Shown: in pieces, positions 1,531-18,253 of the stretch
Layout: each line of letters begins with the position of its first letter
Numbering within the stretch: the stretch's first letter is position 1
Source: a virus
Taxonomy: Duplodnaviria; Heunggongvirae; Uroviricota; Caudoviricetes
Direction: 5' to 3' (one strand)
DNA: 18,292 nucleotides
IMG/VR virus record: IMGVR_UViG_2718218361_000001
Made by a program: the position numbers and the translations under genes
The notes under the pieces: model-generated
Told to the model about the DNA's origin: nothing
Database searches by the model: none
What the model saw: the letters and a program-made list of their open reading frames with translations, nothing else

Positions 1531-1560
1531 TGGTGGGCTGGCAGTGACTGAATTGGTGCT
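1531..1560. repeat. Degenerate copy of the ssrA 3' end (att-core-like remnant)
   Basis: tatttggtgg-gctggcagtgactgaat here resembles tatttggtggagctggcgggagttgaac at the ssrA 3' end (17887-17915) and the second copy at 5706-5733. Alignment done by eye. Confidence 0.4.
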
Positions 1561-1643
1561 GTAATTGGTTGAAATATTTCATCTAATGTCTGGTTCAACT
1601 TTCCTTAGCTGCCTGAAAGTTTTTTGATCTTACCCAGCAATAA

Positions 1644-1745
1644 CAGCGTTACGGTGCACCACGCCTGACTGAAGAACTGCGTGCTCAGGGTTACCACTTC
1701 AACGTAAAACCGTGGCAGGAGGTCCGGACTGAAAAAACTGGTCAG
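1644..1745 (+). pseudogene. IS3-family transposase (OrfB-like) fragment
   Basis: Frame translation [22 protein letters not shown] matches, from memory, the conserved [22 protein letters not shown] block of IS911/IS3-type transposases. Only about 30 codons; flanked by stops; no start or RBS. Confidence 0.5.
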
Positions 1746-1758
1746 GACATTATCGGCG

Positions 1759-1880
1759 GTGGACGCACGGGTAGTCTGTAAACCGAACCGACTGGGGCGC
1801 AGTATGTGGCATCTTGTCGTGCTGTTGGAGGAGCTGTGCAAACGTGGTATTAACTTTCGTGCTCTGGCCCAATCTATATT
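1759..1880 (+). pseudogene. Serine recombinase (resolvase/invertase family) internal fragment
   Basis: Translation NRLGRSMWHLVVLLEELCKRGINFRALAQSI resembles the conserved resolvase/invertase block (LDRLGRS...L..L.ERGI.F.SL.DSI). Catalytic N-terminus and C-terminal HTH are absent. Confidence 0.55.
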
Positions 1881-2285
1881 TGCCCAACAATGGGGGGACG
1901 AATGCTGTAAAAGTAAAACAATCTGCGATCTCAAAGTTATTGTGTGATTTTTATGTGAGCAGAAGATATTCATCAGAAACGATTATGTAAATCATTTTAT
2001 TTTGCCAACGGCCTCATTGTCGAAAGAAAAGAATACGCCCGTATTTCCTGAATGGATTGACTTTTTTATCCAACCACACTTCAGCGCACTGCGTTTAAAA
2101 AATGCCTCATTCTTATGCGGAATATCATCATTTCATCATGATGTCTTTGATGAGCGGTGAACACAATACACTTGCGCTGTCTCTTCAGGATGAATCCCCT
2201 GGTCTGGTGCCTGTGGGCTGATGTTGCAGCAGAGCTAAGGTCGCTTAAACGCTACTCAGTATTCACTTTTCAGAGGATGAAATTT

Positions 2286-5200: not shown

Positions 5201-5546
5201 ATATCATTTATCCAATGGCATGGAATCGAAATCAGTCGATACCCGCAGTTTATATCGTGAACTGGGTGCAACGCTGAGTTACAACATGCGTCTGGGGAAC
5301 GGTATGGAAGTTGAGCCGTGGCTGAAGGCGGCTGTGCGCAAAGAATTTGTCGATGATAACCGGGTGAAAGTGAATAGTGACGGTAATTTCGTCAATGATT
5401 TGTCGGGCAGACGTGGAATATACCAGGCAGGTATTAAAGCCTCATTCAGCAGTACGTTAAGCGGGCATCTTGGGGTGGGGTATAGCCATGGTGCCGGTGT
5501 GGAATCCCCGTGGAACGGGGTAGCTGGTGTGAACTGGTCGTTCTGA
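2286..5546 (+). pseudogene. Autotransporter adhesin (AIDA-I/self-associating type) disrupted by frameshifts
   Basis: ATG 2286 with GAGGA 8 nt upstream and a signal-peptide-like N-terminus (MNRTSPHYCRRSVLSLLISALIYA). About 900 aa of degenerate passenger repeats (IxGGxQ, NGGxL) spread over three reading frames. Frame changes sit at an A5 tract (3005-3009) and a G5 tract (5176-5180). C-terminus ends in an aromatic-rich barrel-like segment ...GVNWSF, but the barrel part looks short. Confidence 0.65.
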
Positions 5547-5555
5547 CCATCAACG

Positions 5556-5580
5556 AAAAAGCCCACATCTGTGGGCTTTC
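5556..5580 (+). terminator. Rho-independent terminator-like hairpin after the autotransporter gene
   Basis: GCCCAC-atct-GTGGGC stem-loop (5561-5576) followed by TTTC, 15 nt after the TGA at 5544-5546. A-run upstream means it could act in both directions. Confidence 0.5.
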
Positions 5581-5705
5581 ATGTCACCAGGAGCCGCGGC
5601 TCCTTTGCGTATCCTTTTATGTCTCTTCACCGTCTGGTCGGTGTCCTGCTGAGACTGCTAACTTCCTGTTTTTATTGGTGTTGTCCTTATACCGTCCAAT
5701 CATGA

Positions 5706-5733
5706 TTGGTGGGCTGGCGGAGTATGAATTTGC
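5706..5733. repeat. Degenerate ssrA 3'-end copy; candidate distal att site of the satellite
   Basis: ttggtgg-gctggcgg-agtatgaatttgc resembles ttggtggagctggcgggagttgaacccgc at the ssrA 3' end, roughly 24 of 30 positions by eye. It lies just outside the left arm-type repeats. Confidence 0.45.
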
Positions 5734-5781
5734 ATATTATATTGTTGTTTTTATTGTATATTTATTTTTATGGTCTTTATT

Positions 5782-5805
5782 GGTATACCTAAGCGTATAC
5801 CAATA
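5782..5805. repeat. Integrase arm-type-like repeats, left end of the satellite
   Basis: GGTATACCTAAGCGTATACCAATA matches CGTATACCTAAACGTATACCAATA at 17757-17780 at 22 of 24 positions. Contains two (G/C)GTATAC units 12 bp apart. Confidence 0.5.
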
Positions 5806-5897
5806 GCGGGGTGCAATACTTATTTAACTTAAAAAAAATCATCCCTAAATAGGTCGTTTTATATTCAAAAAACAAAAAAAATCTTTTTTAAATAAGT

Positions 5898-5975
5898 TGT
5901 TCACACTGTTCACTTAGGGTTTTTATCATTCAAAATCAAGGTAATAGAAGTTAACTGTATGGTGAAGAGTGAACA
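5898..5975. repeat. crr-like iteron cluster downstream of the primase gene
   Basis: TGTTCAC at 5898-5904 and 5907-5913, and inverted GTGAACA at 5969-5975. The P4 alpha-binding octamer is TGTTCACC (from memory). Confidence 0.5.
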
Positions 5976-6000
5976 GATAACTCTACATTCTTGCGCCAGC

Positions 6001-6026
6001 GAAAACAAAACCCGGCATCAGCCGGG
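6001..6026 (-). terminator. Rho-independent terminator for the primase operon
   Basis: CCCGGC-atca-GCCGGG hairpin (6011-6026) which on the minus strand is followed by TTTTGTTTTC, 12 nt after the primase stop codon (6038-6040). Confidence 0.65.
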
Positions 6027-6037
6027 TTAGTTGCAAA

Positions 6038-8371
6038 TTATTTTATTGTTGGCTCATCGCACTTGGGTAGCCAGTCTGCATTACTCTCTTCTTTTAAGGT
6101 GAGGTTAGTCTGCATTCCCTGATTAGTTCGCCGCTTCTCATAATGTAGCCCGTACTCCTTCAGCATAACTGGTAGCCCTTTGCCAAACATTGTCAGGCTG
6201 AGGGTATTTTTATAGCCATTAGCCTCCATGTATACGAGATAAGCATGGTAAAGGTATGTACGTGGCTGGCGCGGGACAATATTGGCGTTTCCCATAAACA
6301 TGCCGTTGGTGTCGGGTAATGCCTCAAGATAGCCACAAAAATCAAATGCTGGATCAGCATCACGCTTGATGGTGAGAGCCTCATCAGAATTCTGCTGCGA
6401 CTGAAGCAATGTTCTGGCACTCATCGGATCACTGAAACGCTGCATGAGCTGGCGAACAATCACAGCAAGTTCTTGAGCAATTTTATCTTTTAGCTGCGGA
6501 TCGCGTTCTTCCGGTGCTATCTGCTCAGGAAAATGCAGAATAACTCTCCGGCGAGACACACCACCACTGCGATCAGTGAAGCGCATAGGATTATTATTTA
6601 CGGCCAGGATAACCGCCGGAATATGTGTTGAATAAGCATTCTGATATTTGGGGTCCACAGATACTGCATCGCCACCGGTTATAGCCTTAAGCCCGGCGCC
6701 ATCGCCGCTCCACTTCTCCTGATCAGGCAGGCGAATAAGAGAAAAACCGATCAGAGCTGCACGTTCTCGCGGGGACTCCAGAGTTTCAATTGTCGCTGAG
6801 GTGGCGTTATCCTCTCCTGCAAGCATCGTTGCAATTTCAGCAAGGATACTTTTGCCACTTCCGCCAGGGCCAGTCACTTCCAGAAAGAGCTGCCAGTCAT
6901 AGCGGTTCGCCAGCACCATAAACAGCGCTGCGAGAATAATGTCGCGTTTTGCTGGCTTGCGCCCGGCTGCCCTGTCCAGCCAGCGCCAGAATGCCGGGGC
7001 ATGAGTTTCAAGCGTTTCCCCATTTACCGGTGGCGTGAAATCAACTTCACACAGGGTACGCAGCCACTTCTCTTTACAGTGCGGACTAAACAGCCCTGTT
7101 CGCGTATCGAGGACGCCATTACGAAAACCGATCAGATGACGTGCCGGATTTTGCTGCTGCGGAACAATTAACTTTAATGTTTCCACCAGTGAGGCAATCT
7201 TTCCTGAGGAAAACGGTGCACCGAGGCGCTGGAAAAGGGCTGCGACATCTCGGGCAAAATCAGACTGAGAAATCACTTTCCACGCCCCAGACTCATAGCG
7301 GGATAAAAGCTGCCCGTTCGGATCAACCGCCAGCGCATCCCTGTAATGCTCCCGAACCCTCTGAGCTTTTTCGCTGACACTCATCGCTGTGAATTCTGCT
7401 TCACTCATCGTGTCGAAAGGACTGGCGTTATGTGGCCTCAAAGCCTCAAGAATTGCCTTCCGGGTGGATTCCTCTCCGTAATGGGCAAGCGCATCATTCC
7501 AGTCACCAAAAACCGGTGGCAGCACAATGTCACACTGACACGCTTTTGCAGCAGCTTCAGCCCTGTTCTGGCCTGAACCATTCAGATCTCGGTCCGCTGC
7601 AATAATTAGCTGATACCCCGGATACTTGTTATGGGCAACGCTGGCCAGAGAAAGAAAGTTGACCGCCGAAAATGCCACCATGACGGCTTCTCCAGTCAGA
7701 TGATGAATGGTAAGCGCCGTGGCGTAGCCTTCCGTAATCCACATTCTTCTTACTGAACTCCCGCCCCCTTCTATCAGATGATAGGCCTCCTTAACCTGAC
7801 CTCCTTTAAGAAAACACTTGCTACCATTGCTACTGATAAGCTGAATATTCACCAGCTCCCCGTCAGCGTTATAGAGCGGGACGATCAAATCACCGGGGCG
7901 GAACATCACCCCACCGGTTTTATGAGCTGAAGTCAGCTCATGGCAAATATGTTCCGGGAAACCTTTATGTGTAAGATAAGTATTTCCGGCAGATTCGCGC
8001 GAGGCTTGCAGCAGTCGCGCGGCAAGTGCTGCCGCTGCATCTTTCCCGCTATTGGTATCGGCGGTTAACGTCCTGACTTCGGAATTAGCTATAGACAGGC
8101 CATGTGTCATTCCATGTATCCTGTCAGCTGCTTCACTGATATCCACATTCAGTGCCCTGGTGACAAGCGCTAAACCATCCCCGGCTCCGCACTGATTGCA
8201 GAACCATGTTCCACGTCCTTCCTGATCGTCGAAGCGAAAACGATCTTTACCGCCACAGACCGGACAAGGCTGATGGCGATTTTTCAATATATTCACGCCC
8301 AGCGCTGGCAGAATCTGAGCCCAGTGACCGCGGGCAGCCTTCACGGCCTGACTGACTTTCATTCCTGACAT
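6038..8371 (-). CDS. P4 alpha-type primase/helicase (phage/plasmid primase, P4 family), 777 aa
   Basis: ATG at 8371 with GAGGGAGAA 7 nt upstream. N-terminal zinc-binding CPVCGGKDRFRF...CNQCG, a primase-like central region, and Walker A GPGGSGKS in the C-terminal NTPase domain. Length equals P4 alpha as I recall it. The ORF track's upstream in-frame Met lacks an RBS. Confidence 0.9.
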   Translation of the reverse strand: MSGMKVSQAVKAARGHWAQILPALGVNILKNRHQPCPVCGGKDRFRFDDQEGRGTWFCNQCGAGDGLALVTRALNVDISEAADRIHGMTHGLSIANSEVRTLTADTNSGKDAAAALAARLLQASRESAGNTYLTHKGFPEHICHELTSAHKTGGVMFRPGDLIVPLYNADGELVNIQLISSNGSKCFLKGGQVKEAYHLIEGGGSSVRRMWITEGYATALTIHHLTGEAVMVAFSAVNFLSLASVAHNKYPGYQLIIAADRDLNGSGQNRAEAAAKACQCDIVLPPVFGDWNDALAHYGEESTRKAILEALRPHNASPFDTMSEAEFTAMSVSEKAQRVREHYRDALAVDPNGQLLSRYESGAWKVISQSDFARDVAALFQRLGAPFSSGKIASLVETLKLIVPQQQNPARHLIGFRNGVLDTRTGLFSPHCKEKWLRTLCEVDFTPPVNGETLETHAPAFWRWLDRAAGRKPAKRDIILAALFMVLANRYDWQLFLEVTGPGGSGKSILAEIATMLAGEDNATSATIETLESPRERAALIGFSLIRLPDQEKWSGDGAGLKAITGGDAVSVDPKYQNAYSTHIPAVILAVNNNPMRFTDRSGGVSRRRVILHFPEQIAPEERDPQLKDKIAQELAVIVRQLMQRFSDPMSARTLLQSQQNSDEALTIKRDADPAFDFCGYLEALPDTNGMFMGNANIVPRQPRTYLYHAYLVYMEANGYKNTLSLTMFGKGLPVMLKEYGLHYEKRRTNQGMQTNLTLKEESNADWLPKCDEPTIK

Positions 8372-8385
8372 GATGCAGTTCTCCC

Positions 8386-8709
8386 TCAGTGTAAAACTGG
8401 CTTTTTGATGTGACGGACGCATAACTCATCCATTACGGCTATTCCGAGCTGGGAGAGTGCGGGACAGGACATTAGAGGGCCGGATTCCATCAGGTCTGAA
8501 AGCAGGGCGCAGGCGATTTCCATGCCTTTTGTTTGCCCGTGCTGTCGCAGATAAAATCCTTCAAGCTCACGGGCAATAGCGGTTTCAATTTCATCCAGAG
8601 TCAGCTGCAGGTGGCGGTTTTGCTGATGGCAGGCACTCAGCCATGCGCAGGCTACCGCGCGGCGATACAACGCTACCCGAAGTGAAAGGGAAAGAGTGCG
8701 TGATTTCAT
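8386..8709 (-). CDS. Hypothetical protein (107 aa), immediately upstream of the primase
   Basis: ATG at 8709 with GGAGG 7 nt upstream. Start overlaps the stop of the preceding gene (ATGA). Stop lies 15 nt before the primase start. Confidence 0.6.
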
Positions 8710-8930
8710 TGCACCACCTCCATGTTCATCAGGTCATCCTGGCAACGTTGTACCACGCCATCAAGCTGCTCTGTCATCAGATAAATCAGGGAAACCAGTT
8801 GCTCACATTGAGCATTGGCAGGTTTTTCGTAGCAATCCTGAAGAACAGCCATTCCGGTGACAAGCTCCCCCACGTTACGAAGATGCTTCAGGCGGACAAT
8901 ATCGTCATAAGAGATTGCGGCGTGATTCAT
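8706..8930 (-). CDS. Hypothetical protein (74 aa)
   Basis: Internal ATG at 8930 with GGGAGG 7 nt upstream. Start overlaps the stop of the upstream 63-aa ORF. The longer ORF-track version (87 aa) lacks an RBS. Confidence 0.55.
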
Positions 8931-9121
8931 CACATCACCTCCCGGACAGGCAGGCGAGCAGCAAGGCAAAGCACATACTCATGGACCAGTGAAAGACGTG
9001 CATGATACTCATCGCTGGCGACAATACGCAGCATACTGATACGTGGTTTACGTTCTGCACGACGAACGGCGGCAAAAACAAATATAAATTGAGGATGTGA
9101 TGGGGCGAGGATCGTAGCCAT
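8930..9121 (-). CDS. Hypothetical small protein (63 aa), first gene of the coupled small-ORF cluster
   Basis: ATG at 9121 with GGAG 9 nt upstream. It is the C-terminal 63 codons of a 197-aa ORF whose upstream part has no RBS and a GC-rich, structured character. Confidence 0.4.
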
Positions 9122-9324
9122 AAGGGCAATCTCCAATAAGTAGCGGTTATTGCCACCACCAGAGCTGCAAATCTCATGGGTGATGGCCCGGACGGGGTTT
9201 GCAGTACCGGCCTTATTGGAAACCGGCCAGCCCGAAGGCTGCCCCGCCCGGACCACCATTATCTGACAGGAGCCACGGTGTAAGCACCACAGCCCGAAAA
9301 ATAGGTGTGCCTGAGCAACGACAT

Positions 9325-9346
9325 AAAAAAACACGCTCGACGCGTG
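9325..9346 (-). terminator. Candidate rho-independent terminator between the AlpA-like gene and the small-ORF/primase operon
   Basis: On the minus strand a CACGC-gtcga-GCGTG hairpin (9332-9346) is followed by a U7 run (A7 at 9325-9331 on plus). Stem is only 5 bp. Confidence 0.4.
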
Positions 9347-9474
9347 CTGTGTCGCCAATAAGTTACACGGGCTGCAAATCCCGGCTGCCGATTTTGCGGC
9401 AGCAGAAAAACTATAACTGGAAAGCTTGCCAGGACGCAAGCCACAAAAAAAGAGATGAGACTGCAAAGCCAGAT

Positions 9475-9735
9475 TCACGCATGGTCTCCTTGCTCGCGGG
9501 CTGCAATTCGCGCCGCCATCCATGCATTGACCTCCGACTGTACCCAGGCAACATTTTTTCCACCCAGGGAGATCTGCTGCGGGAAGGCATCACGGCTGAT
9601 AAGGTCGTAGATGGTTGAACGGGATAGCCCGCAAAGGTGCATCACTTCAGGTAATCGTATGAAGCGCTCCTGCTCAGTCGGAACCGGGAGCACCGGAGCA
9701 GCTGGTGCTGGGGTGGAAACGGAAATAGTATGCAT
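9475..9735 (-). CDS. AlpA/Vis-family phage transcriptional regulator (excisionase-like HTH), 86 aa
   Basis: ATG at 9735 with AGAGAGG 7 nt upstream. Translation [46 protein letters not shown] has the AlpA-type HTH signature. Confidence 0.8.
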
Positions 9736-10270
9736 CTCGCTACCTCTCTAATATGTTTTCAGTAGTCCGGACAATTCCATCCGGATTCAGGTAGTTCCTT
9801 ATTATGTTCATATAAGCGGCTCGCGCATGCTTTATTTAATTAGAGTGAAATATTGACTTCTCAAAAAATAAAACAGCTAAAAACCGGATAAAACGGACAA
9901 AAACAAATCATTCCCTCATGGAATATAATAAGGAGCTTCAAGAATAAAAAAGTCTATTACACCAAGCAGGATCGCCGCTCAAGTCTGTACCAGACCATAT
10001 CATTCCGGGCGTTACATCATAAGGATGAAAACAGCGCCGGAATAATAAAAGGGCCAAAAAACGTTCATAAAAAACAGTTCATCATATGTATTAATTAAGT
10101 TAATGGCTAAAAAAATTAAATTACCCGCATCCTTCCGAATTTATCCGGATGTGTTTAGTGAGCATCAGACAGATTCATTTTTATGGATATTTTCCTGAAA
10201 TGCAACCGAGTGTAGGGAGGTTAAGTGTTGAATTTTTAAACAGACATAAGACACATTTTATACTGTATAT

Positions 10271-10567: not shown

Positions 10568-10639
10568 ATCCTCATCGGTAGTGCGCTTGTATGGGCACCG
10601 GCACAATTGACACAACAACAAAACACTACCGGAGCAGCC

Positions 10640-11392
10640 ATGACAACTGTTAACCAGATCCCTGATGCAAACATTACACCCTCCCTCCCACCGAAAATTC
10701 GCGAAGCGGTAGAAAAAGTTAAAGCAGCAAAAGCTGTCTGGCAGGAAGAACGGCGAATACAAACTGAAGCCGCTGCAATGACTGAAACTATCCGTAAACG
10801 TCAGGAAGATACAAAAACGGAGACGCAGGCGCTTAATGATGAATGGCGAAACCTGTTTCGTGAGAATCAGGGGAATATGACGCCACGAATGAAAAAACTG
10901 CGGGCAGAAATCGCCCTGGGACGCGAAACACTTGATGAGTTCGAAGATTTGCTTGAAGCTCACGCCGCAGAAAAAGAATTCCTGCCCTGGAAAACTGCGG
11001 ATGCTGCAAACCGCTACATCAGCGAACATAACCGGCTGATTGAAACTCATGCAGAGTGGCTCTGGAATGAGTTTATGAAGGAACACGGCCAGAAACTTAT
11101 TCAGATCCTTGGATTGCTGAAAATGACTCTGGGGCGAAGCGCTTCTTCCGTTATCGGCGTAGTTCATACCGTAAACGACCCCGAAAGTGTGCTGAAGCAA
11201 TTTATCAGCGAGCAACTCACCGCTCCGGCACTGTCCTGTAACGTATCTTCAACGGATGTTATTGCCCTGCCGGGGATTAGCATTTATGCGGACGATAAAG
11301 CCCTACAGGATGCCAGACAATCACCCAGCCCTGCAGCGCGTTCCCGGATGCTTAAACAGCGTGACATGGTTAAAGGGGAAGAGAAGGGATGA
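10640..11392 (+). CDS. Sid/Psu-family protein, candidate capsid size-determination (Sid-like), 250 aa
   Basis: ATG at 10640 with GGAG 5 nt upstream (ORF-track start 10607 is a TTG without RBS). First gene of the late operon as in P4. Shares the NEFMKEHGQKL block with the Psu-like product (ENFMSEHGNAL) and MTPRMKKLRAEIA with the paralog at 12237 (VTPEMKALRAEYL). Stop overlaps the next start (ATGA). Confidence 0.7.
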   Translation: MTTVNQIPDANITPSLPPKIREAVEKVKAAKAVWQEERRIQTEAAAMTETIRKRQEDTKTETQALNDEWRNLFRENQGNMTPRMKKLRAEIALGRETLDEFEDLLEAHAAEKEFLPWKTADAANRYISEHNRLIETHAEWLWNEFMKEHGQKLIQILGLLKMTLGRSASSVIGVVHTVNDPESVLKQFISEQLTAPALSCNVSSTDVIALPGISIYADDKALQDARQSPSPAARSRMLKQRDMVKGEEKG

Positions 11393-11943
11393 ATCCTGGA
11401 AACATTACTAAGGAAGCTCTCAACAACTATCGCGCGGAGATAAAAAGCTGGCTGACACTACGTAATGTGCAAAGTACCAGCCAACTTCGTCTGGCGGCTC
11501 TGCTGGATACTGAAGAAAAACCGGCAGCATATGCCAGCCAGCTTGAGAATCTTCGTGAGCGTCTTGCTCTCCTCGAATGGCAGATTAACTGCGCCGCTAG
11601 GGACGGTCTTTATGCTCACCAGATTGTGCTGGAAAGCTGTGTTACAAGCGCAACTGAAAACTTCATGAGCGAGCATGGTAATGCACTCACTGACGCTCTG
11701 GCTCCTTTTCTTTGCGCACCATACGGGCTTGAGGCGGCAATGAAAATATTACGCACCGCTGTAGTCCGACAAACCGAAATCCGTACTCCTGTAATTTCAG
11801 CAGCATATAAGAGCGTTATCGACGAAACCGGATTAACGGTGGATGCATCAATGCGAGCTGATGCTTCAGCCATTTTCACCCCGGCAAAACATAAAGTTTT
11901 TCTGGCCCGCCTCAACAGGCTTAATGAAAAAGGAGGGTACTGA
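11389..11943 (+). CDS. psu: Psu-like protein (polarity suppression / capsid decoration family), 184 aa
   Basis: ATG at 11389 preceded by a purine-rich stretch. Blocks EHGNALTDALAP and FTPAKHKVFLAR resemble my recollection of P4 Psu (QHGTALAAALAP, FTPAQNMIFSRK). Size close to P4 Psu (190 aa). Confidence 0.75.
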   Translation: MNPGNITKEALNNYRAEIKSWLTLRNVQSTSQLRLAALLDTEEKPAAYASQLENLRERLALLEWQINCAARDGLYAHQIVLESCVTSATENFMSEHGNALTDALAPFLCAPYGLEAAMKILRTAVVRQTEIRTPVISAAYKSVIDETGLTVDASMRADASAIFTPAKHKVFLARLNRLNEKGGY

Positions 11944-11944
11944 T

Positions 11945-12217
11945 ATGGCCCTGAAATGTCCTGAATGTGGCACGGTCGCACACGCCAGAACCAGCGCCTA
12001 TGAAGCTCCATCGGTTAAACGCTCATGGTATCAGTGCCAGAATCTTGAATGCTCCTGCACATTTACTGCCCTGGAAAGTGTGGACACGATAATTATGAAG
12101 CCCCATAAACCAGTGGCGCCTGAACCTGAATCACAGAGCGATTCTCTTGTACGTCAGCCGCATACACTGGGCCGCTACGGTTCAGCCTGTACCCTTAAAG
12201 ACCGTCATGCACAATAA
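11945..12217 (+). CDS. Ogr/Delta-family zinc-finger late transcription activator, 90 aa (single domain)
   Basis: ATG at 11945 with GGAGG 8 nt upstream, 1 nt after the Psu stop. CPECGTVAHARTS...WYQCQNLECSCTFTALESV matches the Ogr/Delta signature (recalled P2 Ogr: CPLCQHAAHARTS...YHQCQNVNCSATFITYESV). Confidence 0.85.
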   Translation: MALKCPECGTVAHARTSAYEAPSVKRSWYQCQNLECSCTFTALESVDTIIMKPHKPVAPEPESQSDSLVRQPHTLGRYGSACTLKDRHAQ

Positions 12218-12236
12218 ATTGGGGAGGAACAAAAAT

Positions 12237-13049
12237 ATGACAGAACAACAATTGACGGAAAACCAGATTCAGGCCGCAACCGGACACGTAGTAACACTCC
12301 TCGCGAGGGCAAAAAAACCGCTTCAGGATGCGGATTGGCTCATGAATTTGCCTGCAAATGAAATAGCCCGCGAGACGGAAAAACTGACAAAAAGCCTTTC
12401 CTCCGACTGGCAGTCCCGAATTATCGACCTTTACCAAAAAATGCAGGCCTGGGTGGAGGCCAGACAGGCCGAAGAAGCAGCCATTGAGAACCTTCGGGCT
12501 CTGCGCCAGCATCAGACCGAAACTGAGCAGGCCAGCAAAGACAATCGGGCGCAGTTCAGGGAACTGCTTAACCAGAGCGGCGGCATCGTAACGCCGGAGA
12601 TGAAAGCTCTCCGGGCTGAGTATCTGGAACAACAGGAAACAGCCACAGAACTCGCCGGGCTGATTACTGAAAAAGAAGATCAGCTGCCGGTACTGGCTCA
12701 AGCGACCACGCGTAAAGCAAACGTCTATATAAACTGCCATCATGGCATCACTGAGGAGCGTATCGATGAGCTTTTACGAGACTTTTTTATTTTCCACGGT
12801 GCCGAATTGAGCGGCCTGCTCAGGATGAAGTACAGACAATTTGAGCGATATAGCTCAGCACATATACCGGGCATTATTGAAGGCACAAATGATGCAGATA
12901 CGCTGTATCGTGAATTTATCCTGAATCTAATGCTGAAGTGGACGAATGAAATATTACCGTTAAGATTCCGGGACGACGTGATGAGCCTGACCGGTTCAGC
13001 TCCGGTATCAGGATCGCATGACGACAGAAAAAAAAGTAAGCTGTTTTGA
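12237..13049 (+). CDS. Second Sid/Psu-family paralog, 270 aa, function unassigned
   Basis: ATG at 12237 with GGGGAGG 9 nt upstream (ORF-track start 12147 lacks an RBS). Coiled-coil-like; shares sequence blocks with the Sid-like gene at 10640. Followed by a strong terminator. Confidence 0.7.
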   Translation: MTEQQLTENQIQAATGHVVTLLARAKKPLQDADWLMNLPANEIARETEKLTKSLSSDWQSRIIDLYQKMQAWVEARQAEEAAIENLRALRQHQTETEQASKDNRAQFRELLNQSGGIVTPEMKALRAEYLEQQETATELAGLITEKEDQLPVLAQATTRKANVYINCHHGITEERIDELLRDFFIFHGAELSGLLRMKYRQFERYSSAHIPGIIEGTNDADTLYREFILNLMLKWTNEILPLRFRDDVMSLTGSAPVSGSHDDRKKSKLF

Positions 13050-13095: not shown

Positions 13096-13236
13096 GATGT
13101 CTATAGCCTGAGTGCATGTCTATACTGCATGAAATCGCATGACTTTATGCACTTGCATTTTTACTTCCCAGACCAGATAAGGCGCGGTTTAGAGCCTATC
13201 ATGCAACTGCATGAAAACCACTCCCTAAAGCGGGCA

Positions 13237-13255
13237 GGCGTGGCGGGGCTACGAG
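13237..13255. other. Candidate cos-like site (P2/186-family cohesive-end-like sequence)
   Basis: GGCGTGGCGGGG matches the first 12 nt of the P2/186-type 19-nt cohesive end as I recall it (GGCG[A/T]GGCGGGGAAAGCA-). The remaining 7 nt diverge. Position between the late operon and the cargo matches where cos sits in P4. Confidence 0.3.
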
Positions 13256-13629
13256 CGCGCGCTTCGAGGTAAAAGGATGCCGAGCATACAACTCATCGAT
13301 AATGCGGTAGGGTAAATAAGGGGGGGGGCTTGCTATTTTGTACGCTGTAAGGAAGCAAAAGGAAGTCAGTGAGCTAGGGTTAAACAACCCAGCGTATGAG
13401 GTTAAAGTCTAAAATTGAGAACAGCCGTATATGGAGTAATAAAAAGGTGAGGTTGAATCTTTGAGAGGCTGTTTATCAAGGCATAAACCTCTATAGGATG
13501 CATGGTTTTGCATGTGTTTAAATGTTACGCCAATTTAGGCCAACGCCTTTAGGGCGTGGCCTATTTCCATCTTTGCAACTCCATCAAATGCGTCTTCATG
13601 ATGAAGATGAGGATTAGGCGGAAATTGAA

Positions 13630-15399
13630 TTAAAGACGCCACAGACTCTCAAGATCGAGCGTGTCACTTTGCGGTGCACTTTCTTCAGAAAGTCTATCGA
13701 TCTGCACAAGAAGCGGAGTATGAAATGCTGTTCCCGAAATTATGCATGCGCCTGGAGGAAGGGTAGGTATAAGTGTTCTGGATGCTGCATCTAATGTACT
13801 TAAGGTGTTTTTAAGAAGGTAAAGGTCGTTTTCATTTACCAAGCGATGTATGAAATAATTATGAAGTTGTGATACGATTGTTGGCGATATATCAAATGGT
13901 CGCTGGCTTGAAATAGTTACAAAATAACCAAACTTCCTACCTTCCTTTATTATCTCCTCAAATAATTCAAGTCGATAATCTTTCCAAGTCTCAGCCTCCC
14001 TCACAGAGCTTTCGGAAAGAATGTTGTGAGCTTCATCTATTATTAAATGAAAACTTTCTTTTTTGTTGTCCGAAGACTTGTGTTCTATGAAGGAACATTT
14101 CGCAATCATCATCGGAATCGTTTTTTTTATGGTTTGATTGCATTCTTTGAGAGAGATTATGGATATTGGTTTATAGCTTTGTTGAGCGCGGTTTATTTCT
14201 ATAACCTTTGCTAGAGATGAGCTCATTGCTATTATTTTGTTTATCAAAGGATATATGTGATCATATTGAACATAGTTTCTGGATACAGAATTTATTAATT
14301 GCAGTGTTGCACGTATAGCAATTTCATCAAATACACTAGTAACATGGAATTGGCTATTGTATGTTGCTTGAGTGTGTTTTAAAACTTCAGCAGTAGTGTC
14401 AAGCCAACCCGAAGGGTGTGTATATTTTTCTTGGTTTGAATGCCAAGTAAAGAGAGAGAGTTCATCTCGTATCTTTTGTTGATCGTTCTCATCGAAATAA
14501 GGCAGTAGACTTTTTAATAAATTAACGGTCTCTTTGTGAGGATTTGTTCCAAACATTATTTCAATTGTTCTTTTTAAATATGTGTTAAGATCGTCATCAT
14601 ACTTTAACTTGCTCTTTATTAAATGTGTAAGAAATGGTTTTTGTGTTTTCTCGGTTGCAGAGAATAAAACTGACAACAGTTCATCATCCCAAAATTCTTT
14701 TTCACCGAAATATATCTTATCACCATCTTTTTTTGTGCTAAGTTTTGTGGAGTGACATAGTTCTGGAAAGGAATTCTCTAATGTCCCATATTCACCATTG
14801 AAATCAATCAATACGAAATTTGACTTATCGATCAATTGTTGTTTGTTTTCAATTCTATTGAAAAGTGATTGATATATTTTTGCTAGAGTATTTGACTTTC
14901 CACTTCCTGTATTTCCAAAAATACCTATATGAGAATTAAAAACACCGTTTATGGGAATGTTTATTGGTAATTCCTCTAGCATGGATTTGCCAATGTTAAT
15001 GAGCGGAGTTTTTGTATTTTTGCTAAAACTATAGATTTCAGATATTTTATCATCCGAAATTAAATAAAGTCTATCATTTATCATTGGGAGATATTTTATT
15101 CCAGAGTAGAATTTACCCTCAAAAAAATACCCGAGAATATTTAGTTCAACGAATCTTTCATATTTTTTCTGCTCAATGTCATCAGTACGAATGTTAAAGT
15201 TCTCAACAATTTCCTCACCTATGATCTTACCTACAATGTCCTGATAACCTTTACGAACTAATACAAATTCATTTATTGATATACCACGCAATATTTTTCC
15301 ATTGTGGAAGTATGTTGATTGGAACAAGTCATGGTTTATTTTTGCTTTGACAGTGGTTCCTTTTACTTGGGTCACTTTACCTATATTCAGTTCGTCCAT
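13630..15399 (-). CDS. HerA-like (FtsK/HerA superfamily, DUF87-type) ATPase, 589 aa; second gene of the cargo pair
   Basis: ATG at 15399 with AGGAGA 9 nt upstream (ORF-track start 15408 is a TTG). Walker A GIFGNTGSGKSNT and Walker B HLIIDEAHN; N-terminal beta-rich region before the ATPase core. About 28-30% GC by hand count. Overlaps the upstream gene by 13 nt. Confidence 0.85.
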   Translation of the reverse strand: MDELNIGKVTQVKGTTVKAKINHDLFQSTYFHNGKILRGISINEFVLVRKGYQDIVGKIIGEEIVENFNIRTDDIEQKKYERFVELNILGYFFEGKFYSGIKYLPMINDRLYLISDDKISEIYSFSKNTKTPLINIGKSMLEELPINIPINGVFNSHIGIFGNTGSGKSNTLAKIYQSLFNRIENKQQLIDKSNFVLIDFNGEYGTLENSFPELCHSTKLSTKKDGDKIYFGEKEFWDDELLSVLFSATEKTQKPFLTHLIKSKLKYDDDLNTYLKRTIEIMFGTNPHKETVNLLKSLLPYFDENDQQKIRDELSLFTWHSNQEKYTHPSGWLDTTAEVLKHTQATYNSQFHVTSVFDEIAIRATLQLINSVSRNYVQYDHIYPLINKIIAMSSSLAKVIEINRAQQSYKPISIISLKECNQTIKKTIPMMIAKCSFIEHKSSDNKKESFHLIIDEAHNILSESSVREAETWKDYRLELFEEIIKEGRKFGYFVTISSQRPFDISPTIVSQLHNYFIHRLVNENDLYLLKNTLSTLDAASRTLIPTLPPGACIISGTAFHTPLLVQIDRLSEESAPQSDTLDLESLWRL

Positions 15400-16502
15400 G
15401 TTACCCAATCTCCTGTTTCTGATTTGAAAATTCTATCAATAAAAGTATCAAAAGAAATTTTATGATCAACTTCTTTAGGATAAATGAAGGTTATTCTGGG
15501 GTCATTTACTGTATTATTTATATCTTGCTTGCTTTGATTGTTGTAGCAAAAAACAAATACTTTTAGTGTTGGATTACTTAAAGATCTTTTTATTATTTCA
15601 AGAATGTGCTCGTCTTGAAATGAAAACCCAAAACAAATTAATACAGTTTGTGGTTTCTCTAATTCATAGCTTAATAATCTTAAGCTCTGATAGTAGTGTT
15701 GCTGAAATACTGTTTCTGAAAACTTTTCTTTGGTCGGATTAACTATCGCGAGTGAGTTATAGTATGATTTGAATTCTTCAAGAGAATTTTGGTCATTAGC
15801 ATTTAAATCCAAGTAATCAGCAAGATCATCGTTAGTTGTATTTAGGGTAATTACTAAATCATCTATGGTTTTATCTGTCTCTAAATTTATTAATTCAGGT
15901 GAAACGCTTGGGTAGTTGATGCTTATTGTTTCATTCTCATCTCTTTTCCATGAGACCGAACCATGCATTTTAATTAAATTGATAGTTGGTAACTCATGTT
16001 TGTACATATCATGAGTTCCTTGATGCCAAGTAGTAATATGAAAATTACTAATGTTTAATCTTCTGTTTTTAAAACCTATAGCACCATCATTGAAATGGAA
16101 TGTTTTCTTAGCTAATGCATTGTCTGCTGCTGTTTCAAAAAAAAGATCATAGTTAGTTGTGAAAATATTGGCTCGTCTTATTTGATTGGAACCTTTTTTT
16201 TCTAATAAAGTAACAAGTTCATCTAGAAAATCTGTATAGCTATTTATTGTTGAGGTGTATTTTTTGTTTTCTACACTTGGCTCAATGCAAAATGTTTTTC
16301 TAATGATTTTATTGAAATAAGAACATAAGATAAAATCCTTAACATCGATACAATCTTTATGCGTTAATAATGTCTCATAAGTGGTGTTTTCAGCAAGCCA
16401 CAGCGTTGGTATATACGATGCTGAAGCTCCTGAGCCAAATAGAAAGTTAATATTTTTATCATAAATATTTGATGCTTTGCATGGGAATTCTCTCGTGCTC
16501 AT
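15387..16502 (-). CDS. SIR2-like (sirtuin-fold, predicted NADase) protein, 371 aa; first gene of the cargo pair
   Basis: ATG at 16502 with AAGGA 8 nt upstream, only 10 bp after the integrase stop. Motifs FLFGSGASAS (glycine-rich loop), TTNYD and MHGS (His-Gly) are typical of SIR2-family domains. AT-rich like its partner. Confidence 0.85.
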   Translation of the reverse strand: MSTREFPCKASNIYDKNINFLFGSGASASYIPTLWLAENTTYETLLTHKDCIDVKDFILCSYFNKIIRKTFCIEPSVENKKYTSTINSYTDFLDELVTLLEKKGSNQIRRANIFTTNYDLFFETAADNALAKKTFHFNDGAIGFKNRRLNISNFHITTWHQGTHDMYKHELPTINLIKMHGSVSWKRDENETISINYPSVSPELINLETDKTIDDLVITLNTTNDDLADYLDLNANDQNSLEEFKSYYNSLAIVNPTKEKFSETVFQQHYYQSLRLLSYELEKPQTVLICFGFSFQDEHILEIIKRSLSNPTLKVFVFCYNNQSKQDINNTVNDPRITFIYPKEVDHKISFDTFIDRIFKSETGDWVTWTN

Positions 16503-16512
16503 TTTTATATCC

Positions 16513-17706
16513 TTACTTGCTATTCACTATGAAATTGCCCCACCAATTCATAAGGCCCTTTCTTTTTTCAAGGTAAGTGGAACGATTGTATGCTCTGCGA
16601 ACCTCATTCTTCTCAATGTGAGCAAGCGCTGCTTCAATCACATCTGAATTTAAACCAGCTTCATTCATTGCTGTACTCGCTATAGAGCGTAAACCATGTG
16701 CAACTAATTTACCCCCATATCCAATCCGTTTTAAAGCAGCATTTGCCGTCTGGCTATTCATTGGTTGCTTTGGGTCATTCCGACTCGGAAAAACATGTTC
16801 ACGATGCGCACTGATAGGCTTCATAACATCAAGAATCTCTAATGCCTGAAGAGATAGTGGAACTATGTGCTCGCGCTTAGCCTTCATACGTTCGGCTGGA
16901 ATGGTCCAGAGCTTTGCTTCGAGATCGATCTCTGCCCACCGAGTACCAGATGCTTCAGAAGGACGCACAAGGGTCAGAAGCTGCCATTCAATGAGACAGC
17001 GAGTCGTAACAGATAGATTTGACATTACTAGAGAACGCATCAGCTTTGGTAATTCTTCTGGCCGAAGCGTCGGCATATTTTGTTTTTTTGGCTTTTCAAA
17101 GGCCATTCCAACACCTGATGCTGGGTTTGCATCAATCAGACCAGTGTTTACGGCATAAATCATTATCTCGTTAATACGCTGCACCAGTCGACGTACCGTC
17201 TCAAGCGCTCCACGAGCTTTTATTGGCTCAAGGGCTTCAACCAATGTTCGTGCTTTGATTTGCTGAACAGGGATTTCACCGATTGCAGGAAATACGTCTT
17301 TCTCCAGTGAGCGCCAAATGTCTTTTGCGTAGTCAGGGGTAACGCTTTTGCTTTTTAGCTTGAACCAGTTAGCGGCGACCGTTGAAAAAATACTTTCCAG
17401 AGCGATTTGCTGCTCTTCCTCTGCGGCTTCGGCTTGAATTTGTGGGTCGATTTTGTTGGCTAGTAAAGCAAGGTAATCCGCTCTTAGACTTCGAGCATCA
17501 GCAAGTGAAAGGGAGGGGAAGGCTCCGAGCCCCATCATGGTCCGCTGCTTTGTTGCCGGACGTAGATAGCGAAAGCGCCATAGTTTCTTGCCGCTGGTTT
17601 TCACTAGCAGGAAAAGTCCATCGCCATCATGCAGCGTTAGATCCTTATCGATTGCTTTTGCGCGCAGAACTTCGGTGTTGGTCAGGGGGCGTGTTGTCCG
17701 TGCCAC
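16513..17706 (-). CDS. int: P4-type tyrosine integrase (IntA-like), 397 aa
   Basis: GTG start at 17706 with AAGGAG 8 nt upstream. N-terminus MARTTRPLT...DGDGLFLLV and C-terminal HGLRSIAST...VRRAYNRSTY (H-x-x-R and catalytic Tyr) resemble my recollection of CP4-57 IntA. Lies next to the ssrA 3' end in the same orientation. Confidence 0.92.
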   Translation of the reverse strand: MARTTRPLTNTEVLRAKAIDKDLTLHDGDGLFLLVKTSGKKLWRFRYLRPATKQRTMMGLGAFPSLSLADARSLRADYLALLANKIDPQIQAEAAEEEQQIALESIFSTVAANWFKLKSKSVTPDYAKDIWRSLEKDVFPAIGEIPVQQIKARTLVEALEPIKARGALETVRRLVQRINEIMIYAVNTGLIDANPASGVGMAFEKPKKQNMPTLRPEELPKLMRSLVMSNLSVTTRCLIEWQLLTLVRPSEASGTRWAEIDLEAKLWTIPAERMKAKREHIVPLSLQALEILDVMKPISAHREHVFPSRNDPKQPMNSQTANAALKRIGYGGKLVAHGLRSIASTAMNEAGLNSDVIEAALAHIEKNEVRRAYNRSTYLEKRKGLMNWWGNFIVNSK

Positions 17707-17728
17707 TGTGGCCGCTCCTTCATGAGTT

Positions 17729-17775
17729 GGTATACGCTTTTAGGTATACATCCTACCGTATACCTAAACGTATAC
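17729..17775. repeat. Integrase arm-type-like repeat cluster between int and ssrA
   Basis: Four (G/C)GTATAC units starting at 17729, 17743, 17757 and 17769 (spacing 14, 14, 12 bp). The last two are duplicated at 5782-5805. Confidence 0.5.
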
Positions 17776-17890
17776 CAATAATCACAGGATTTAGCCGGAT
17801 ATTGTCGGACAACGACAGACACAAAAAAGCCCGCAGGGCTTATGCCGTGCGGGCTTTCTGTACTTCACCGGACGAATCCGGATCATTATT

Positions 17891-18253
17891 TGGTGGAGCT
17901 GGCGGGAGTTGAACCCGCGTCCGAAATTCCTACATCCTCGGTACTACATGCTTAGTCAGTCTTTACATTCGCTTGCCAGCTGCGGACGGACACGCCACTA
18001 ACAAACTAGCCTGATTAAGTTTTAACGCTTCAACCCCAGGCAGGGCTTCCACGCGATCTCTTTTGGGTTTGACCTCTCTTGATCCCCGTCCTAAGAGCGG
18101 AGGCTAGGGAGAGAGGGCTCTAAGCAGGTTATTAAGCTGCTAAAGCGTAGTTTTCGTCGTTTGCGACTATTTTTTGCGGCTTTTTACGAGGCCAACCGCC
18201 CCTCGGCATGCACCTTGGGTTTCGCAAATCCCGTCGAATCCAGAATCAGCCCC
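17891..18253 (-). ncRNA. ssrA: tmRNA (SsrA), 363 nt
   Basis: Reverse complement begins GGGGCTGATTCTGGATTCGACGGG and ends GGTTCAACTCCCGCCAGCTCCACCA, matching E. coli ssrA as I recall it. Contains GCAAACGACGAAAACTACGCTTTAGCAGCTTAA, which encodes the ANDENYALAA tag peptide. Confidence 0.95.

What the first reader, a model, noticed from the sequence alone, without database searches (positions are those of the whole stretch)
16503..16512. Cargo operon starts 10 bp after the integrase stop with no room for its own promoter
The int stop (16513-16515) and the SIR2-like start (16502) are separated by 10 bp that contain only the RBS. The cargo is therefore either co-transcribed with int from the promoter in the ssrA-int spacer or driven by a promoter embedded in the 3' end of int. 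Either arrangement couples defence expression to the integration module and makes int-plus-cargo a portable unit.
Basis: inference. Interest (0 to 1): 0.45.

Follow-up and report, generated by a model that had tools for sequence, protein, structure and literature searches.

The report
Defence genes fused behind satellite integrase
A two-gene anti-phage system (SIR2-HerA) starts 10 bases after the integrase gene of a P4-like phage satellite inserted at ssrA in E. coli, so it is most likely read from the same messenger RNA as the integrase; the element type and its cargo are already known and the layout looks like an ordinary operon.

Summary
The int stop TAA is at 16515-16513, the spacer GGATATAAAA at 16512-16503 and the SIR2 ATG at 16502. 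A TAAGGA Shine-Dalgarno overlaps the stop codon.

The window is E. coli S21. It holds a ~12.2-kb P4-like satellite at ssrA carrying SIR2-HerA in the published int-psu/cos defence hotspot.

Among 77 related ssrA-type integrase loci from other species:
- 43 have co-directional cargo. In 25 of those the cargo starts between -8 and +25 nt from the int stop, and 10 overlap it.
- Int is conserved only up to residue 393. The last few codons vary with the cargo.
- Terminator-like hairpins follow int in 12 of 34 convergent loci but in 1 of 43 co-directional loci.

No significant or conserved promoter lies in the int 3' end. There is no dip in synonymous-site variation there, and promoter matrix scores are at chance level.

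The best reading is an int-SIR2-HerA operon transcribed from upstream of int, by a promoter in the conserved ssrA-int spacer and/or ssrA read-through. This is inferred, not shown.

The "int-plus-cargo portable unit" idea is not supported. The closest integrases carry other cargo, and the mobile unit is the whole satellite.

P4-type integrase relatives never show such tight junctions (0 of 29), so the fusion is lineage-specific.

Interest is modest.

The parts
17891..18253 (-). ssrA (tmRNA) gene. Its 3' end is the integration site (attL core) of the satellite.
   Evidence: ARAGORN; Rfam RF00023, 295.8 bits; PGAP annotation.
17821..17856 (-). ssrA terminator hairpin plus U-run, supplied by the satellite. 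It would attenuate read-through into int.
   Evidence: Terminator scan hit at 17841-17827. RNA fold of 17800-17880 gives -35.7 kcal/mol, z = -4.66. Nucleotides conserved in 67 related loci.
17750..17778 (-). Candidate int promoter: -35 TTGGTA (17778-17773), 17-nt spacer, -10 TAGGAT (17755-17750).
   Evidence: Best matrix score (9.0) on this strand between ssrA and SIR2, but no better than the maximum in shuffles (9.2 +/- 1.4). It lies in a spacer that is highly conserved at nucleotide level. It is a candidate only.
17727..17780 (-). GGTATAC-type repeats: two direct copies and one inverted copy. They are probable Int arm-type binding sites overlapping the candidate promoter.
   Evidence: A 23-nt direct repeat is shared with the attR side at 5783-5805. 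Conserved in 67 loci. The function is inferred from the P4 paradigm, in which Int represses its own promoter (PMC7286903).
16513..17706 (-). int, a P4-family tyrosine integrase of 397 aa with a GTG start and an AAGGAG ribosome-binding site at 17720-17715.
   Evidence: Pfam Arm-DNA-bind_3, Phage_int_M and Phage_integrase; PGAP annotation.
16516..16527 (-). Hypervariable last four int codons (V394-K397), which belong to the cargo side of the junction.
   Evidence: In the related loci whose junction could be read, Int is conserved through ...LMxWWGxx[V/I]. It then has a 3-20 aa tail that differs with the cargo and often contains the cargo's ribosome-binding site or an overlapping ATGA.
16503..16515 (-). 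Junction: int stop TAA (16515-16513), Shine-Dalgarno TAAGGA (16515-16510), then a 7-nt spacer before the SIR2 ATG.
   Evidence: Sequence read directly. The same 10-nt junction occurs in homologues of about 76% nucleotide identity in other E. coli.
15387..16502 (-). SIR2-family gene (371 aa), first cargo gene.
   Evidence: Pfam SIR2_2; PADLOC SIR2 PDLC04089, 222 bits; distant match to solved SIR2-HerA complexes such as 8j4u and 8su9.
13630..15399 (-). HerA-family ATPase gene (589 aa from the PGAP ATG). It overlaps the SIR2 end by 13 nt.
   Evidence: PADLOC HerA PDLC04097, 664 bits, full length; Pfam DUF87; PGAP coordinates; PDB HerA matches.
13181..13262 (+). cos-like packaging site. It marks the far boundary of the cargo hotspot.
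   Evidence: BLASTN against the joined ends of P4 (NC_001609): 79.5% identity over 83 nt spanning the cos junction.
5705..5805 (-). attR region: an imperfect copy of the ssrA 3' end (about 5707-5725) plus arm-type repeats (5783-5805). It places the other end of the ~12.2-kb element.
   Evidence: Direct repeat D1. Sequence read directly...ctccgccagcccaccaa... versus the ssrA 3' end.

Best explanation
int, SIR2 and HerA most likely form one three-gene operon on the minus strand.

Transcription. RNA polymerase starts upstream of int. The start is a promoter in the conserved 184-nt ssrA-int spacer (candidate TTGGTA-17-TAGGAT, overlapped by GGTATAC arm-type repeats), with or without leakage through the ssrA terminator. 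It reads through int and continues into SIR2-HerA because nothing stops it at the junction.

Translation. SIR2 is translated from its own TAAGGA Shine-Dalgarno, which overlaps the int stop codon. Ribosomes finishing int can also re-initiate 10 nt downstream. HerA is coupled to SIR2 by a 13-nt overlap.

Context. The cargo sits in the known int-psu/cos defence hotspot of P4-like satellites. In this ssrA-targeting integrase lineage the cassette boundary lies inside the last codons of int. Cassettes therefore arrive without a promoter and use the integrase transcript.

What is shown: the anatomy, the lack of a terminator, the family-wide junction pattern, and the absence of a conserved internal promoter.
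What is inferred: the transcript itself, the identity of the promoter, and any Int autoregulation of it.
For: 1. The gap is 10 nt on the same strand, with the Shine-Dalgarno overlapping the stop.
2. No terminator-like site lies at the junction. The junction RNA is unstructured (z = +1.5).
3. In 77 related loci (one genome per species), 43 have co-directional cargo. In 25 of these the cargo starts at -8..+25 nt, and 10 have overlapping stop and start codons. First-gene lengths differ widely (287 to 959 aa), which indicates many different cargo types.
4. Terminator-like hairpins follow int in 12 of 34 convergent loci but in 1 of 43 co-directional loci (Fisher p = 1.3e-4).
5. Cargo-specific DNA upstream of the cargo ATG clusters at 32-55 nt after the conserved WWG codon, and is 34 nt here. 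That is too short for a promoter plus leader.
6. Synonymous-site diversity in the int 3' end is the highest in the gene (0.78-0.89), so no conserved embedded element is present.
7. The best sigma-70-like match on this strand lies in the ssrA-int spacer, which is strongly conserved at nucleotide level in 67 loci.
8. Homologues of this SIR2-HerA in E. coli and other genera sit directly behind an ssrA-type int with gaps of -8 to +45 nt.
9. From established knowledge: same-strand gene pairs less than about 25 nt apart in E. coli are nearly always in one operon (Salgado et al. 2000, recalled, not read here).
10. Precedents: an integrated ICE uses the neighbouring tRNA promoter to transcribe int (PMC13023037), and a serine recombinase and a defence gene share a bicistronic mRNA (PMC13552941).
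Against: - No RNA data of any kind were available.
- The candidate spacer promoter scores no better than the best hit in shuffled sequence. It did not pass the 9-of-12 consensus scan.
- If the P4 paradigm holds, Int represses its own promoter (PMC7286903). That would keep the cargo at a low level, which may or may not be enough for defence.
- A weak promoter-like site inside int cannot be excluded: TTAAAA-17-TAAATT at 16734-16706, about 200 nt upstream of the SIR2 ATG. It recurs at the same codons in about a third of relatives.
- The ORF calls in the 80 comparison loci come from my own heuristic, not from a gene caller. They were checked against PGAP only in E. coli loci.
Confidence: 0.62

Rival explanations
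1. A promoter embedded in the int coding sequence drives SIR2-HerA independently of int expression. The cargo would then be constitutively on even when the int promoter is repressed.
For: - The int 3' third is AT-rich (about 42-45% GC).
- It contains a weak sigma-70-like site, TTAAAA-17-TAAATT at 16734-16706. With a uniform background this is the top hit in the last 330 nt (score 9.0), and it recurs at the same position in 11 of 25 tight and 11 of 33 convergent relatives.
- Internal promoters in upstream genes are common in bacteria (general knowledge).
- Int autorepression (PMC7286903) would make an independent promoter useful.
Against: - The site matches only 8 of 12 consensus positions and is below the chance maximum.
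- It is formed by conserved codons (LKRIGYGGKL), and synonymous sites there are unconstrained (0.83-0.84).
- Best promoter scores do not differ between loci that would need it (co-directional) and loci that would not (convergent): 8.2 versus 7.5, p = 0.11.
- No sigma-70-like site passing the consensus scan ends within 16503-16700.
Confidence: 0.22
2. The cargo is essentially silent in the integrated state. It is expressed mainly after excision or induction. In the circle, the primase (alpha) operon on the same strand reads across attP into int and the cargo, helped by Psu anti-termination or by a promoter from the attR end.
For: - The primase operon (6038-8422, and upstream to about 9400) is on the same strand as int-SIR2-HerA. 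It would lie directly upstream of attP-int after circularisation.
- State-dependent promoter switching for int is documented in ICEKp1, ICEclc and ICEEc1 (PMC13023037).
- The element encodes Psu.
Against: - A strong terminator follows the primase gene (6028-6009, 8-bp stem with 6 GC pairs plus a T-run).
- No minus-strand promoter-like site was found in 5600-6100.
- Defence cargo in satellites is generally thought to protect the lysogen, which needs expression in the integrated state (PMC9122126). P4-hotspot systems cloned from other satellites protected cells without induction (PMC9122126).
Confidence: 0.08
3. The tight spacing has no regulatory meaning.
For: - The element is about 12.2 kb, against 11.6 kb for P4.
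- In relatives L003, L030 and L055 the HerA stop also abuts cos directly.
- Convergent cargo is equally tightly packed, with 16 of 34 gaps at or below 36 nt.
Against: - Compaction explains why non-coding DNA is lost, but a promoter is still needed, so it does not remove the coupling.
- P4-type integrase satellites face the same capsid limit yet keep a median gap of 149 nt.
- This window itself carries 367 nt of non-coding DNA after HerA.
Confidence: 0.08

Closest known systems
Defence hotspot between int and psu/cos of P4-like satellites (Rousset et al. 2022, PMC9122126; NAR 2026, PMC13586616)
   Same: The element type and position match: int at one end, then cargo, then cos, then the psu/delta/sid module. 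SIR2 + HerA is explicitly listed among P4-hotspot systems in E. coli. Cargo is swapped rapidly between closely related elements.
   Different: Term searches of those two papers (promoter, operon, co-transcri, transcri/transcription, intergenic, orientation) found no description of the int-side junction or of how the cargo is transcribed; both discuss the cos side. Here the cassette boundary falls inside the last int codons and the cargo has no promoter space. This element also integrates at ssrA, and its sid-operon order is sid-like, psu, delta, extra ORF.
Prototype P4 (NC_001609): int followed by cII in the non-essential region
   Same: cII lies downstream of int on the same strand. It is followed by an annotated terminator, with gop and beta convergent.
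   Different: The P4 int-cII gap is 66 nt. In 29 P4-type Int relatives with co-directional cargo the gaps are 30-1239 nt (median 149), never 25 nt or less. The 10-nt fusion seen here is typical only of the ssrA-type integrase lineage.
SIR2-HerA anti-phage system (Gao et al. 2020, as cited in PMC9122126; solved complexes 8j4u, 8su9, 8yhx)
   Same: A two-gene SIR2 plus HerA cassette with overlapping genes. The PADLOC match to HerA is full length and strong, and SIR2 also matches.
   Different: It is only distantly related to the solved complexes (SIR2 E = 3e-11 over about 75 residues; HerA E = 9e-31). Activity was not tested.
Integrase transcription from the adjacent host RNA-gene promoter in integrated ICEs (ICEKp1, PMC13023037)
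   Same: A P4-family-type integrase sits directly downstream of a highly expressed small-RNA gene, with a stem-loop in between that could attenuate read-through.
   Different: There the mechanism was shown for int alone in a conjugative element at tRNA-Asn. Here it is only a possibility, and the transcript would also carry defence genes.
Small serine recombinase and defence gene on one bicistronic mRNA (PMC13552941)
   Same: A recombinase gene is followed on the same strand, within a short distance, by a defence gene. Co-transcription is used as a discovery rule.
   Different: It involves a different recombinase class (serine versus tyrosine), different hosts (Bacillota) and different mobile elements.
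Integron cassette platform (Pc promoter within or next to intI)
   Same: Works alike in concept: promoterless cassettes placed next to an integrase gene rely on a resident promoter.
   Different: It is not a member. Integron cassettes are divergent from intI and are inserted at attI through attC sites. None of that is seen here, where the cargo is co-directional and bounded by int and cos. This comparison rests on my own knowledge.

Membership tests
P4-like phage satellite | Tyrosine integrase next to an att site in an RNA gene | tested here: met
   Pfam finds three integrase domains. int lies 184 nt from the ssrA 3' end. An imperfect copy of the ssrA end and arm repeats lie about 12.2 kb away.
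P4-like phage satellite | Psu, Delta and Sid helper-exploitation module | tested here: met
   Psu scores 114.6 bits and Ogr_Delta 59.2 bits. The upstream 261-aa ORF gives a weak Psu-like hit at 33.4 bits, and P4 Sid is itself annotated as Psu-like. The Sid assignment itself is only tentative.
P4-like phage satellite | Alpha-type primase-helicase | tested here: met
   The 794-aa ORF at 6038-8422 matches Zn_Ribbon_Prim, Toprim_3, D5_N, DUF5906 and Pox_D5. It is preceded by DUF5375, as in P4.
P4-like phage satellite | CI/C4-type immunity RNA | tested here: met
   Rfam C4 scores 86.1 bits at 9176-9263, with c4-a1b1 and isrK upstream.
P4-like phage satellite | P2/P4-type cos site | tested here: inconclusive
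   79.5% identity over 83 nt to the P4 cos junction. The 19-nt P4 cohesive-end sequence itself has no match within 3 mismatches.
P4-like phage satellite | Mobilisation by a P2-like helper | not testable with these tools
   Needs induction and transduction experiments.
P4 int-psu/cos defence hotspot | Variable cargo located between int and cos/psu, differing among close relatives | tested here: met
   The cargo lies at 13630-16502, between int and cos. E. coli relatives with 83-88% identical int carry Hachiman, an nSTAND NTPase, an ATPase or hypothetical genes.
SIR2-HerA defence system | Adjacent SIR2-domain and HerA-ATPase genes matching the system's profile models | tested here: met
   PADLOC SIR2 222 bits and HerA 664 bits over the full profile. 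The genes overlap by 13 nt.
SIR2-HerA defence system | NAD+ depletion or nuclease activity, and phage resistance | not testable with these tools
   Biochemistry and plaque assays are needed.
Operon (int-SIR2-HerA co-transcription) | Same strand, very short or overlapping intergenic distances | tested here: met
   The gaps are +10 nt and -13 nt. The same pattern holds in 25 of 43 co-directional relatives.
Operon (int-SIR2-HerA co-transcription) | No terminator between the genes | tested here: met
   for this window. for the contrast between 1 of 43 co-directional and 12 of 34 convergent loci.
Operon (int-SIR2-HerA co-transcription) | A single transcript spanning the genes | not testable with these tools
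   No RNA data are available. RT-PCR or RNA-seq is needed.
Integron-like cassette platform | attC/attI recombination sites and cassettes divergent from the integrase | tested here: not met
   The cargo is co-directional with int and bounded by int and cos. The 10-nt junction and the 24 nt of int tail leave no room for an attI-like site. It is analogous in logic only.

The most novel reading that the evidence does not exclude
In the ssrA-targeting lineage of P4-like satellites the integrase gene may serve as a shared expression platform. Defence cassettes would be captured without a promoter, spliced into the last codons of int, and expressed only as part of the int transcript, which is itself fed by an Int-controlled promoter and/or ssrA read-through. 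Defence output would then depend on the integration state of the element. It would also mean that 'native-promoter' clones of such cassettes lack their promoter. P4-type integrase satellites, which keep gaps of about 100-150 nt, would use a different strategy.
Probability: 0.35. Interest if true: 0.5.

Novelty: already known. Interest (0 to 1): 0.3.

Why it matters
Three things would follow if the coupling is real.
1. Defence systems cloned from this class of satellite with only their own upstream DNA would be promoterless. They could be scored wrongly as inactive in screens that rely on native promoters.
2. The level of SIR2-HerA, an NAD-depleting and potentially toxic system, would be set by integrase regulation and by the strongly expressed ssrA gene next door.
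3. The sharp boundary at Int residue 393 gives a precise landmark for delimiting cargo in thousands of ssrA-type satellites.

None of this changes what the element is. It is a P4-like satellite with a published type of cargo in a published hotspot.

Tried and rejected
- **cos search from memory.** I searched for the P4/P2 19-nt cohesive end recalled from memory and found no match within 3 mismatches. I replaced this with a BLAST of the joined P4 ends, which located a cos-like region.
- **Consensus promoter scan.** Nothing on the cargo strand lies between 16503 and 17160. The only nearby hit (16487-16458) is inside SIR2. Total hits were below the shuffle expectation.
- **My own sigma-70 matrix scan.** No site exceeded the shuffle maximum.
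- **Family-wide embedded promoter.** I looked for reduced synonymous variation in the int 3' end and found none. The only dip is in the first 15 codons.
- **Stronger internal promoters in co-directional loci.** They do not score higher than convergent loci.
- **int 3' end travelling with the AT-rich cargo.** I tested whether the GC drop and nearest-neighbour switch pointed to this. The GC decline is family-wide (0.43-0.45 in all relatives). Nearest neighbours in 3' windows are not the SIR2-HerA carriers, although L002 is closer in the 3' half (0.77-0.82) than in the 5' third (0.60-0.73).
- **'Portable int-plus-cargo unit'.** Int and SIR2/HerA identities are poorly correlated.
- **A promoter at the attR end for the excised form.** None was found on the right strand.
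- **Literature.** Text searches of the two main P4-hotspot papers found nothing on int-side transcription. I could not find or read the original P4 papers on int and non-essential-region transcription (Ghisotti 1990; Piazzolla 2006). What I say about them comes from PMC7286903 and from memory.

Full report
**1. What is in the window**

The window is the reverse complement of part of the E. coli S21 chromosome (NZ_CP010230.1, 100% identity over the 4.5-kb ssrA-int-SIR2-HerA segment queried). Reading the minus strand from the right, the features are:
- ssrA at 17891-18253.
- A 184-nt spacer.
- int at 16513-17706, with three integrase Pfam domains.
- A SIR2-family gene at 15387-16502.
- A HerA-family ATPase gene at 13630-15399, overlapping SIR2 by 13 nt.
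- 367 nt of non-coding DNA.
- A cos-like site at 13181-13262, 79.5% identical to the P4 cos junction.
- On the plus strand, a sid-like gene, psu, delta and a 270-aa ORF.
- The C4/CI immunity RNA and isrK.
- A DUF5375 gene and an alpha-type primase.
- An attR region, with arm repeats at 5783-5805 and an imperfect copy of the ssrA 3' end at about 5707-5725.

This is a ~12.2-kb P4-like satellite integrated at ssrA. SIR2-HerA occupies the int-psu/cos hotspot described by Rousset et al. 2022, who list SIR2 + HerA among the systems found there in E. coli (PMC9122126).

**2. The observation**

It is correct to the base. The minus strand reads ...AAG TAA GGATATAAAA ATG..., with the stop at 16515-16513, the spacer at 16512-16503 and the ATG at 16502. 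PGAP annotates the same gene ends. TAAGGA (16515-16510) is a six-base Shine-Dalgarno match, 7 nt before the ATG, and it overlaps the stop codon. No terminator-like hairpin lies at the junction. The 91-nt junction RNA folds less well than shuffled versions (z = +1.5), whereas the ssrA terminator region gives z = -4.7.

**3. Comparison with relatives**

A scan of one genome per species returned 80 loci encoding Int relatives of 71-93% amino-acid identity, nearly all from Enterobacterales. Four results follow.

(a) *Where Int conservation ends.* Int is conserved up to ...LMxWWGxx[V/I], which is residue 393 here. It then carries a tail of 3-20 residues that differs from locus to locus and goes with the cargo. 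In many loci the tail contains the cargo's ribosome-binding site or ends in an overlapping ATGA or TAATG. The variable region of the hotspot therefore starts inside the last codons of int. In this window only about 25 nt before the SIR2 ATG are cargo-specific.

(b) *Gap sizes.* Of 77 evaluable loci, 43 have the first cargo gene on the int strand and 34 have it convergent. Among the 43, 25 start between -8 and +25 nt from the int stop, and 10 of those overlap it. The distance from the WWG codon to the cargo ATG clusters at 32-55 nt. First-gene lengths range from 287 to 959 aa, so many different cargo types share this junction. These gene calls come from my own ORF and ribosome-binding-site heuristic. 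PGAP annotation of E. coli loci agrees where I checked: gaps of 10, 10, 10 and 4 nt for SIR2-HerA relatives.

(c) *Terminators.* A terminator-like hairpin sits just after int in 12 of 34 convergent loci but in only 1 of 43 co-directional loci (p = 1.3e-4). Mean folding energy of the 100 nt around the int stop is -19.0 kcal/mol in the 25 convergent loci whose cargo lies within about 110 nt of the int stop. It is -11.7 kcal/mol in the 25 tight co-directional loci.

(d) *A sister family behaves differently.* In relatives of the prototype P4 integrase taken from viral contigs, co-directional cargo never starts closer than 30 nt (0 of 29 at 25 nt or less). The median gap is 149 nt, against 14 nt for the ssrA-type family (p = 8e-8 and 1.5e-7). 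P4 itself has 66 nt between int and cII. The tight fusion is therefore a trait of the ssrA-type integrase lineage, not of P4-like satellites in general.

**4. Where is the promoter?**

The consensus scan found no site on the cargo strand between 16503 and 17160, and fewer sites overall than in shuffles.

My position-weight scan gave its best hit in the ssrA-int spacer: TTGGTA at 17778-17773, a 17-nt spacer, then TAGGAT at 17755-17750, score 9.0. That equals the average best score in shuffled sequence, so it is only a candidate. The spacer is very strongly conserved at the nucleotide level across 67 loci. It contains GGTATAC-type repeats that also occur at the attR end. This fits Int arm-type sites overlapping the promoter, as in P4, where Int represses its own promoter (PMC7286903). 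That last link is inference.

Inside int the best site is TTAAAA-17-TAAATT (16734-16706). It is weak and is made by conserved codons. It occurs equally in co-directional and convergent relatives, and synonymous sites there are free to vary. Across the whole gene, synonymous diversity shows no dip at the 3' end (0.78-0.89). The only dip is in the first 15 codons (0.53-0.61). A family-wide embedded promoter is therefore unlikely, although a weak lineage-specific one cannot be excluded.

**5. Most likely mechanism**

The most likely arrangement is an int-SIR2-HerA operon transcribed from upstream of int, with SIR2 translated from a Shine-Dalgarno that overlaps the int stop and HerA coupled by overlap. 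I put this at about 0.6. The anatomy and the comparative pattern are shown. The transcript, the promoter and its regulation are inferred.

Read-through from the strongly expressed ssrA gene through its terminator is a plausible additional source. An integrated ICE has been shown to use the neighbouring tRNA promoter for int (PMC13023037).

The rivals are:
- an internal int promoter as the main driver (about 0.2);
- expression mainly after excision, through the same-strand primase operon (about 0.1). A strong terminator after the primase gene and the absence of a suitable promoter at the attR end argue against this;
- spacing that reflects genome compaction only, with no regulatory meaning (about 0.1). 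P4-type satellites keep their gaps under the same capsid limit, and this element carries 367 nt of spare DNA after HerA, both of which argue against it.

**6. The 'portable unit' claim**

It is not supported.
- The closest integrases carry other cargo. L013 (93% identity) and L004 (91%) have unrelated genes of about 650 aa.
- E. coli relatives with 83-88% nucleotide identity in int carry Hachiman, an nSTAND NTPase or other genes.
- Int and SIR2 identities are poorly matched. Int 87-89% goes with SIR2 54-55%, and Int 72% with SIR2 69%.
- Only four of 5,426 complete E. coli genomes hold at least 80% of the ssrA-int-SIR2-HerA query at megablast sensitivity (three of them at 99% identity or more), whereas 435 hold an int of this family.

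The cargo is swapped as a cassette between Int residue 393 and cos, in line with the rapid swapping reported for P4 hotspots (PMC13586616). The mobile unit is the whole satellite.

One caveat applies. Homologues of this SIR2-HerA subfamily are found behind an ssrA-type int in every case examined. So the association is recurrent even though it is not exclusive.

**7. Comparison with what is known, and verdict**

The element type, the hotspot and the cargo family are all published. Term searches of the two main papers on P4 hotspots turned up nothing on the int-side junction or on how cargo there is transcribed. A related idea, a recombinase and a defence gene on one mRNA, has been shown for small serine recombinases in Bacillota (PMC13552941).

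The finding is a correct and sensible reading of an ordinary operon-like layout. The modest extra result from this work is that the fusion is systematic and specific to one integrase lineage, and that the cassette boundary lies within the int reading frame.

Interest: 0.3.

Noticed in passing
window 16516-16527 (int codons 394-397); loci L002-L082: The Int C-terminus after ...WWGxx[V/I] is hypervariable in length (3-20 aa) and sequence, and it co-varies with the cargo. In many relatives int simply reads into the cargo's leader until it meets a stop, sometimes overlapping the cargo ATG.
   Followed up: yes
loci L091-L150 compared with L002-L082: P4-type integrase relatives keep at least 30 nt (median 149 nt) before co-directional cargo. 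ssrA-type integrases have a median of 14 nt. The two integrase lineages of P4-like satellites seem to use different cargo-expression layouts.
   Followed up: partly
window 13263-13629: There are 367 nt of non-coding DNA between the HerA stop and the cos-like site, found in only three complete E. coli genomes (S21, H14, PO06101). In L003, L030 and L055 the HerA stop abuts cos directly. The stretch contains a stable hairpin (13538-13561, fold z = -2.6) without a clear U-run. It may be a scar of an earlier cassette or a weak terminator.
   Followed up: partly
window 10607-13049: The helper-exploitation module is ordered sid-like (weak Psu-like Pfam hit), psu, delta, then an extra 270-aa ORF (12237-13049) with no Pfam or PADLOC match. 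This differs from the P4 order sid-delta-psu seen in the otherwise similar satellite of ETEC1730 (L002).
   Followed up: no
window 17662-17706 (first 15 int codons): Synonymous-site diversity is clearly lower here (0.53-0.61) than in the rest of int (about 0.7-0.89). This suggests an overlapping nucleotide-level element at the int 5' end, such as an arm site, mRNA structure or translation-initiation constraint.
   Followed up: no
window 17727-17780 and 5783-5805: GGTATAC-containing repeats flank both ends of the element. A 23-nt copy is shared at 96% identity. These are probably Int arm-type sites, and those on the attL side overlap the candidate int promoter.
   Followed up: partly
L090 (E. 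coli S43, NZ_CP010237.1) 1-5655: Two successive units each consist of an integrase 3' fragment followed by cargo. The first carries a cytosine methyltransferase. The second carries SIR2-HerA, 198 nt after the fragment. This suggests tandem accretion and decay of integrative elements that leaves int-tail plus cargo behind.
   Followed up: no
L003 (Enterobacter cloacae M-7) 6001-10072: This is a decayed copy of the same int-SIR2-HerA arrangement (86% nucleotide identity). It has a stop at int codon 59 and a disrupted SIR2, yet the junction is identical apart from one spacer base.
   Followed up: partly
window 1-5546: Beyond attR lie ypjCB (1-1374, about 33% GC), a recombinase fragment and a frameshifted ypjA/ehaD autotransporter pseudogene (about 2157-5546), as annotated by PGAP. 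This is older island material next to the satellite.
   Followed up: no
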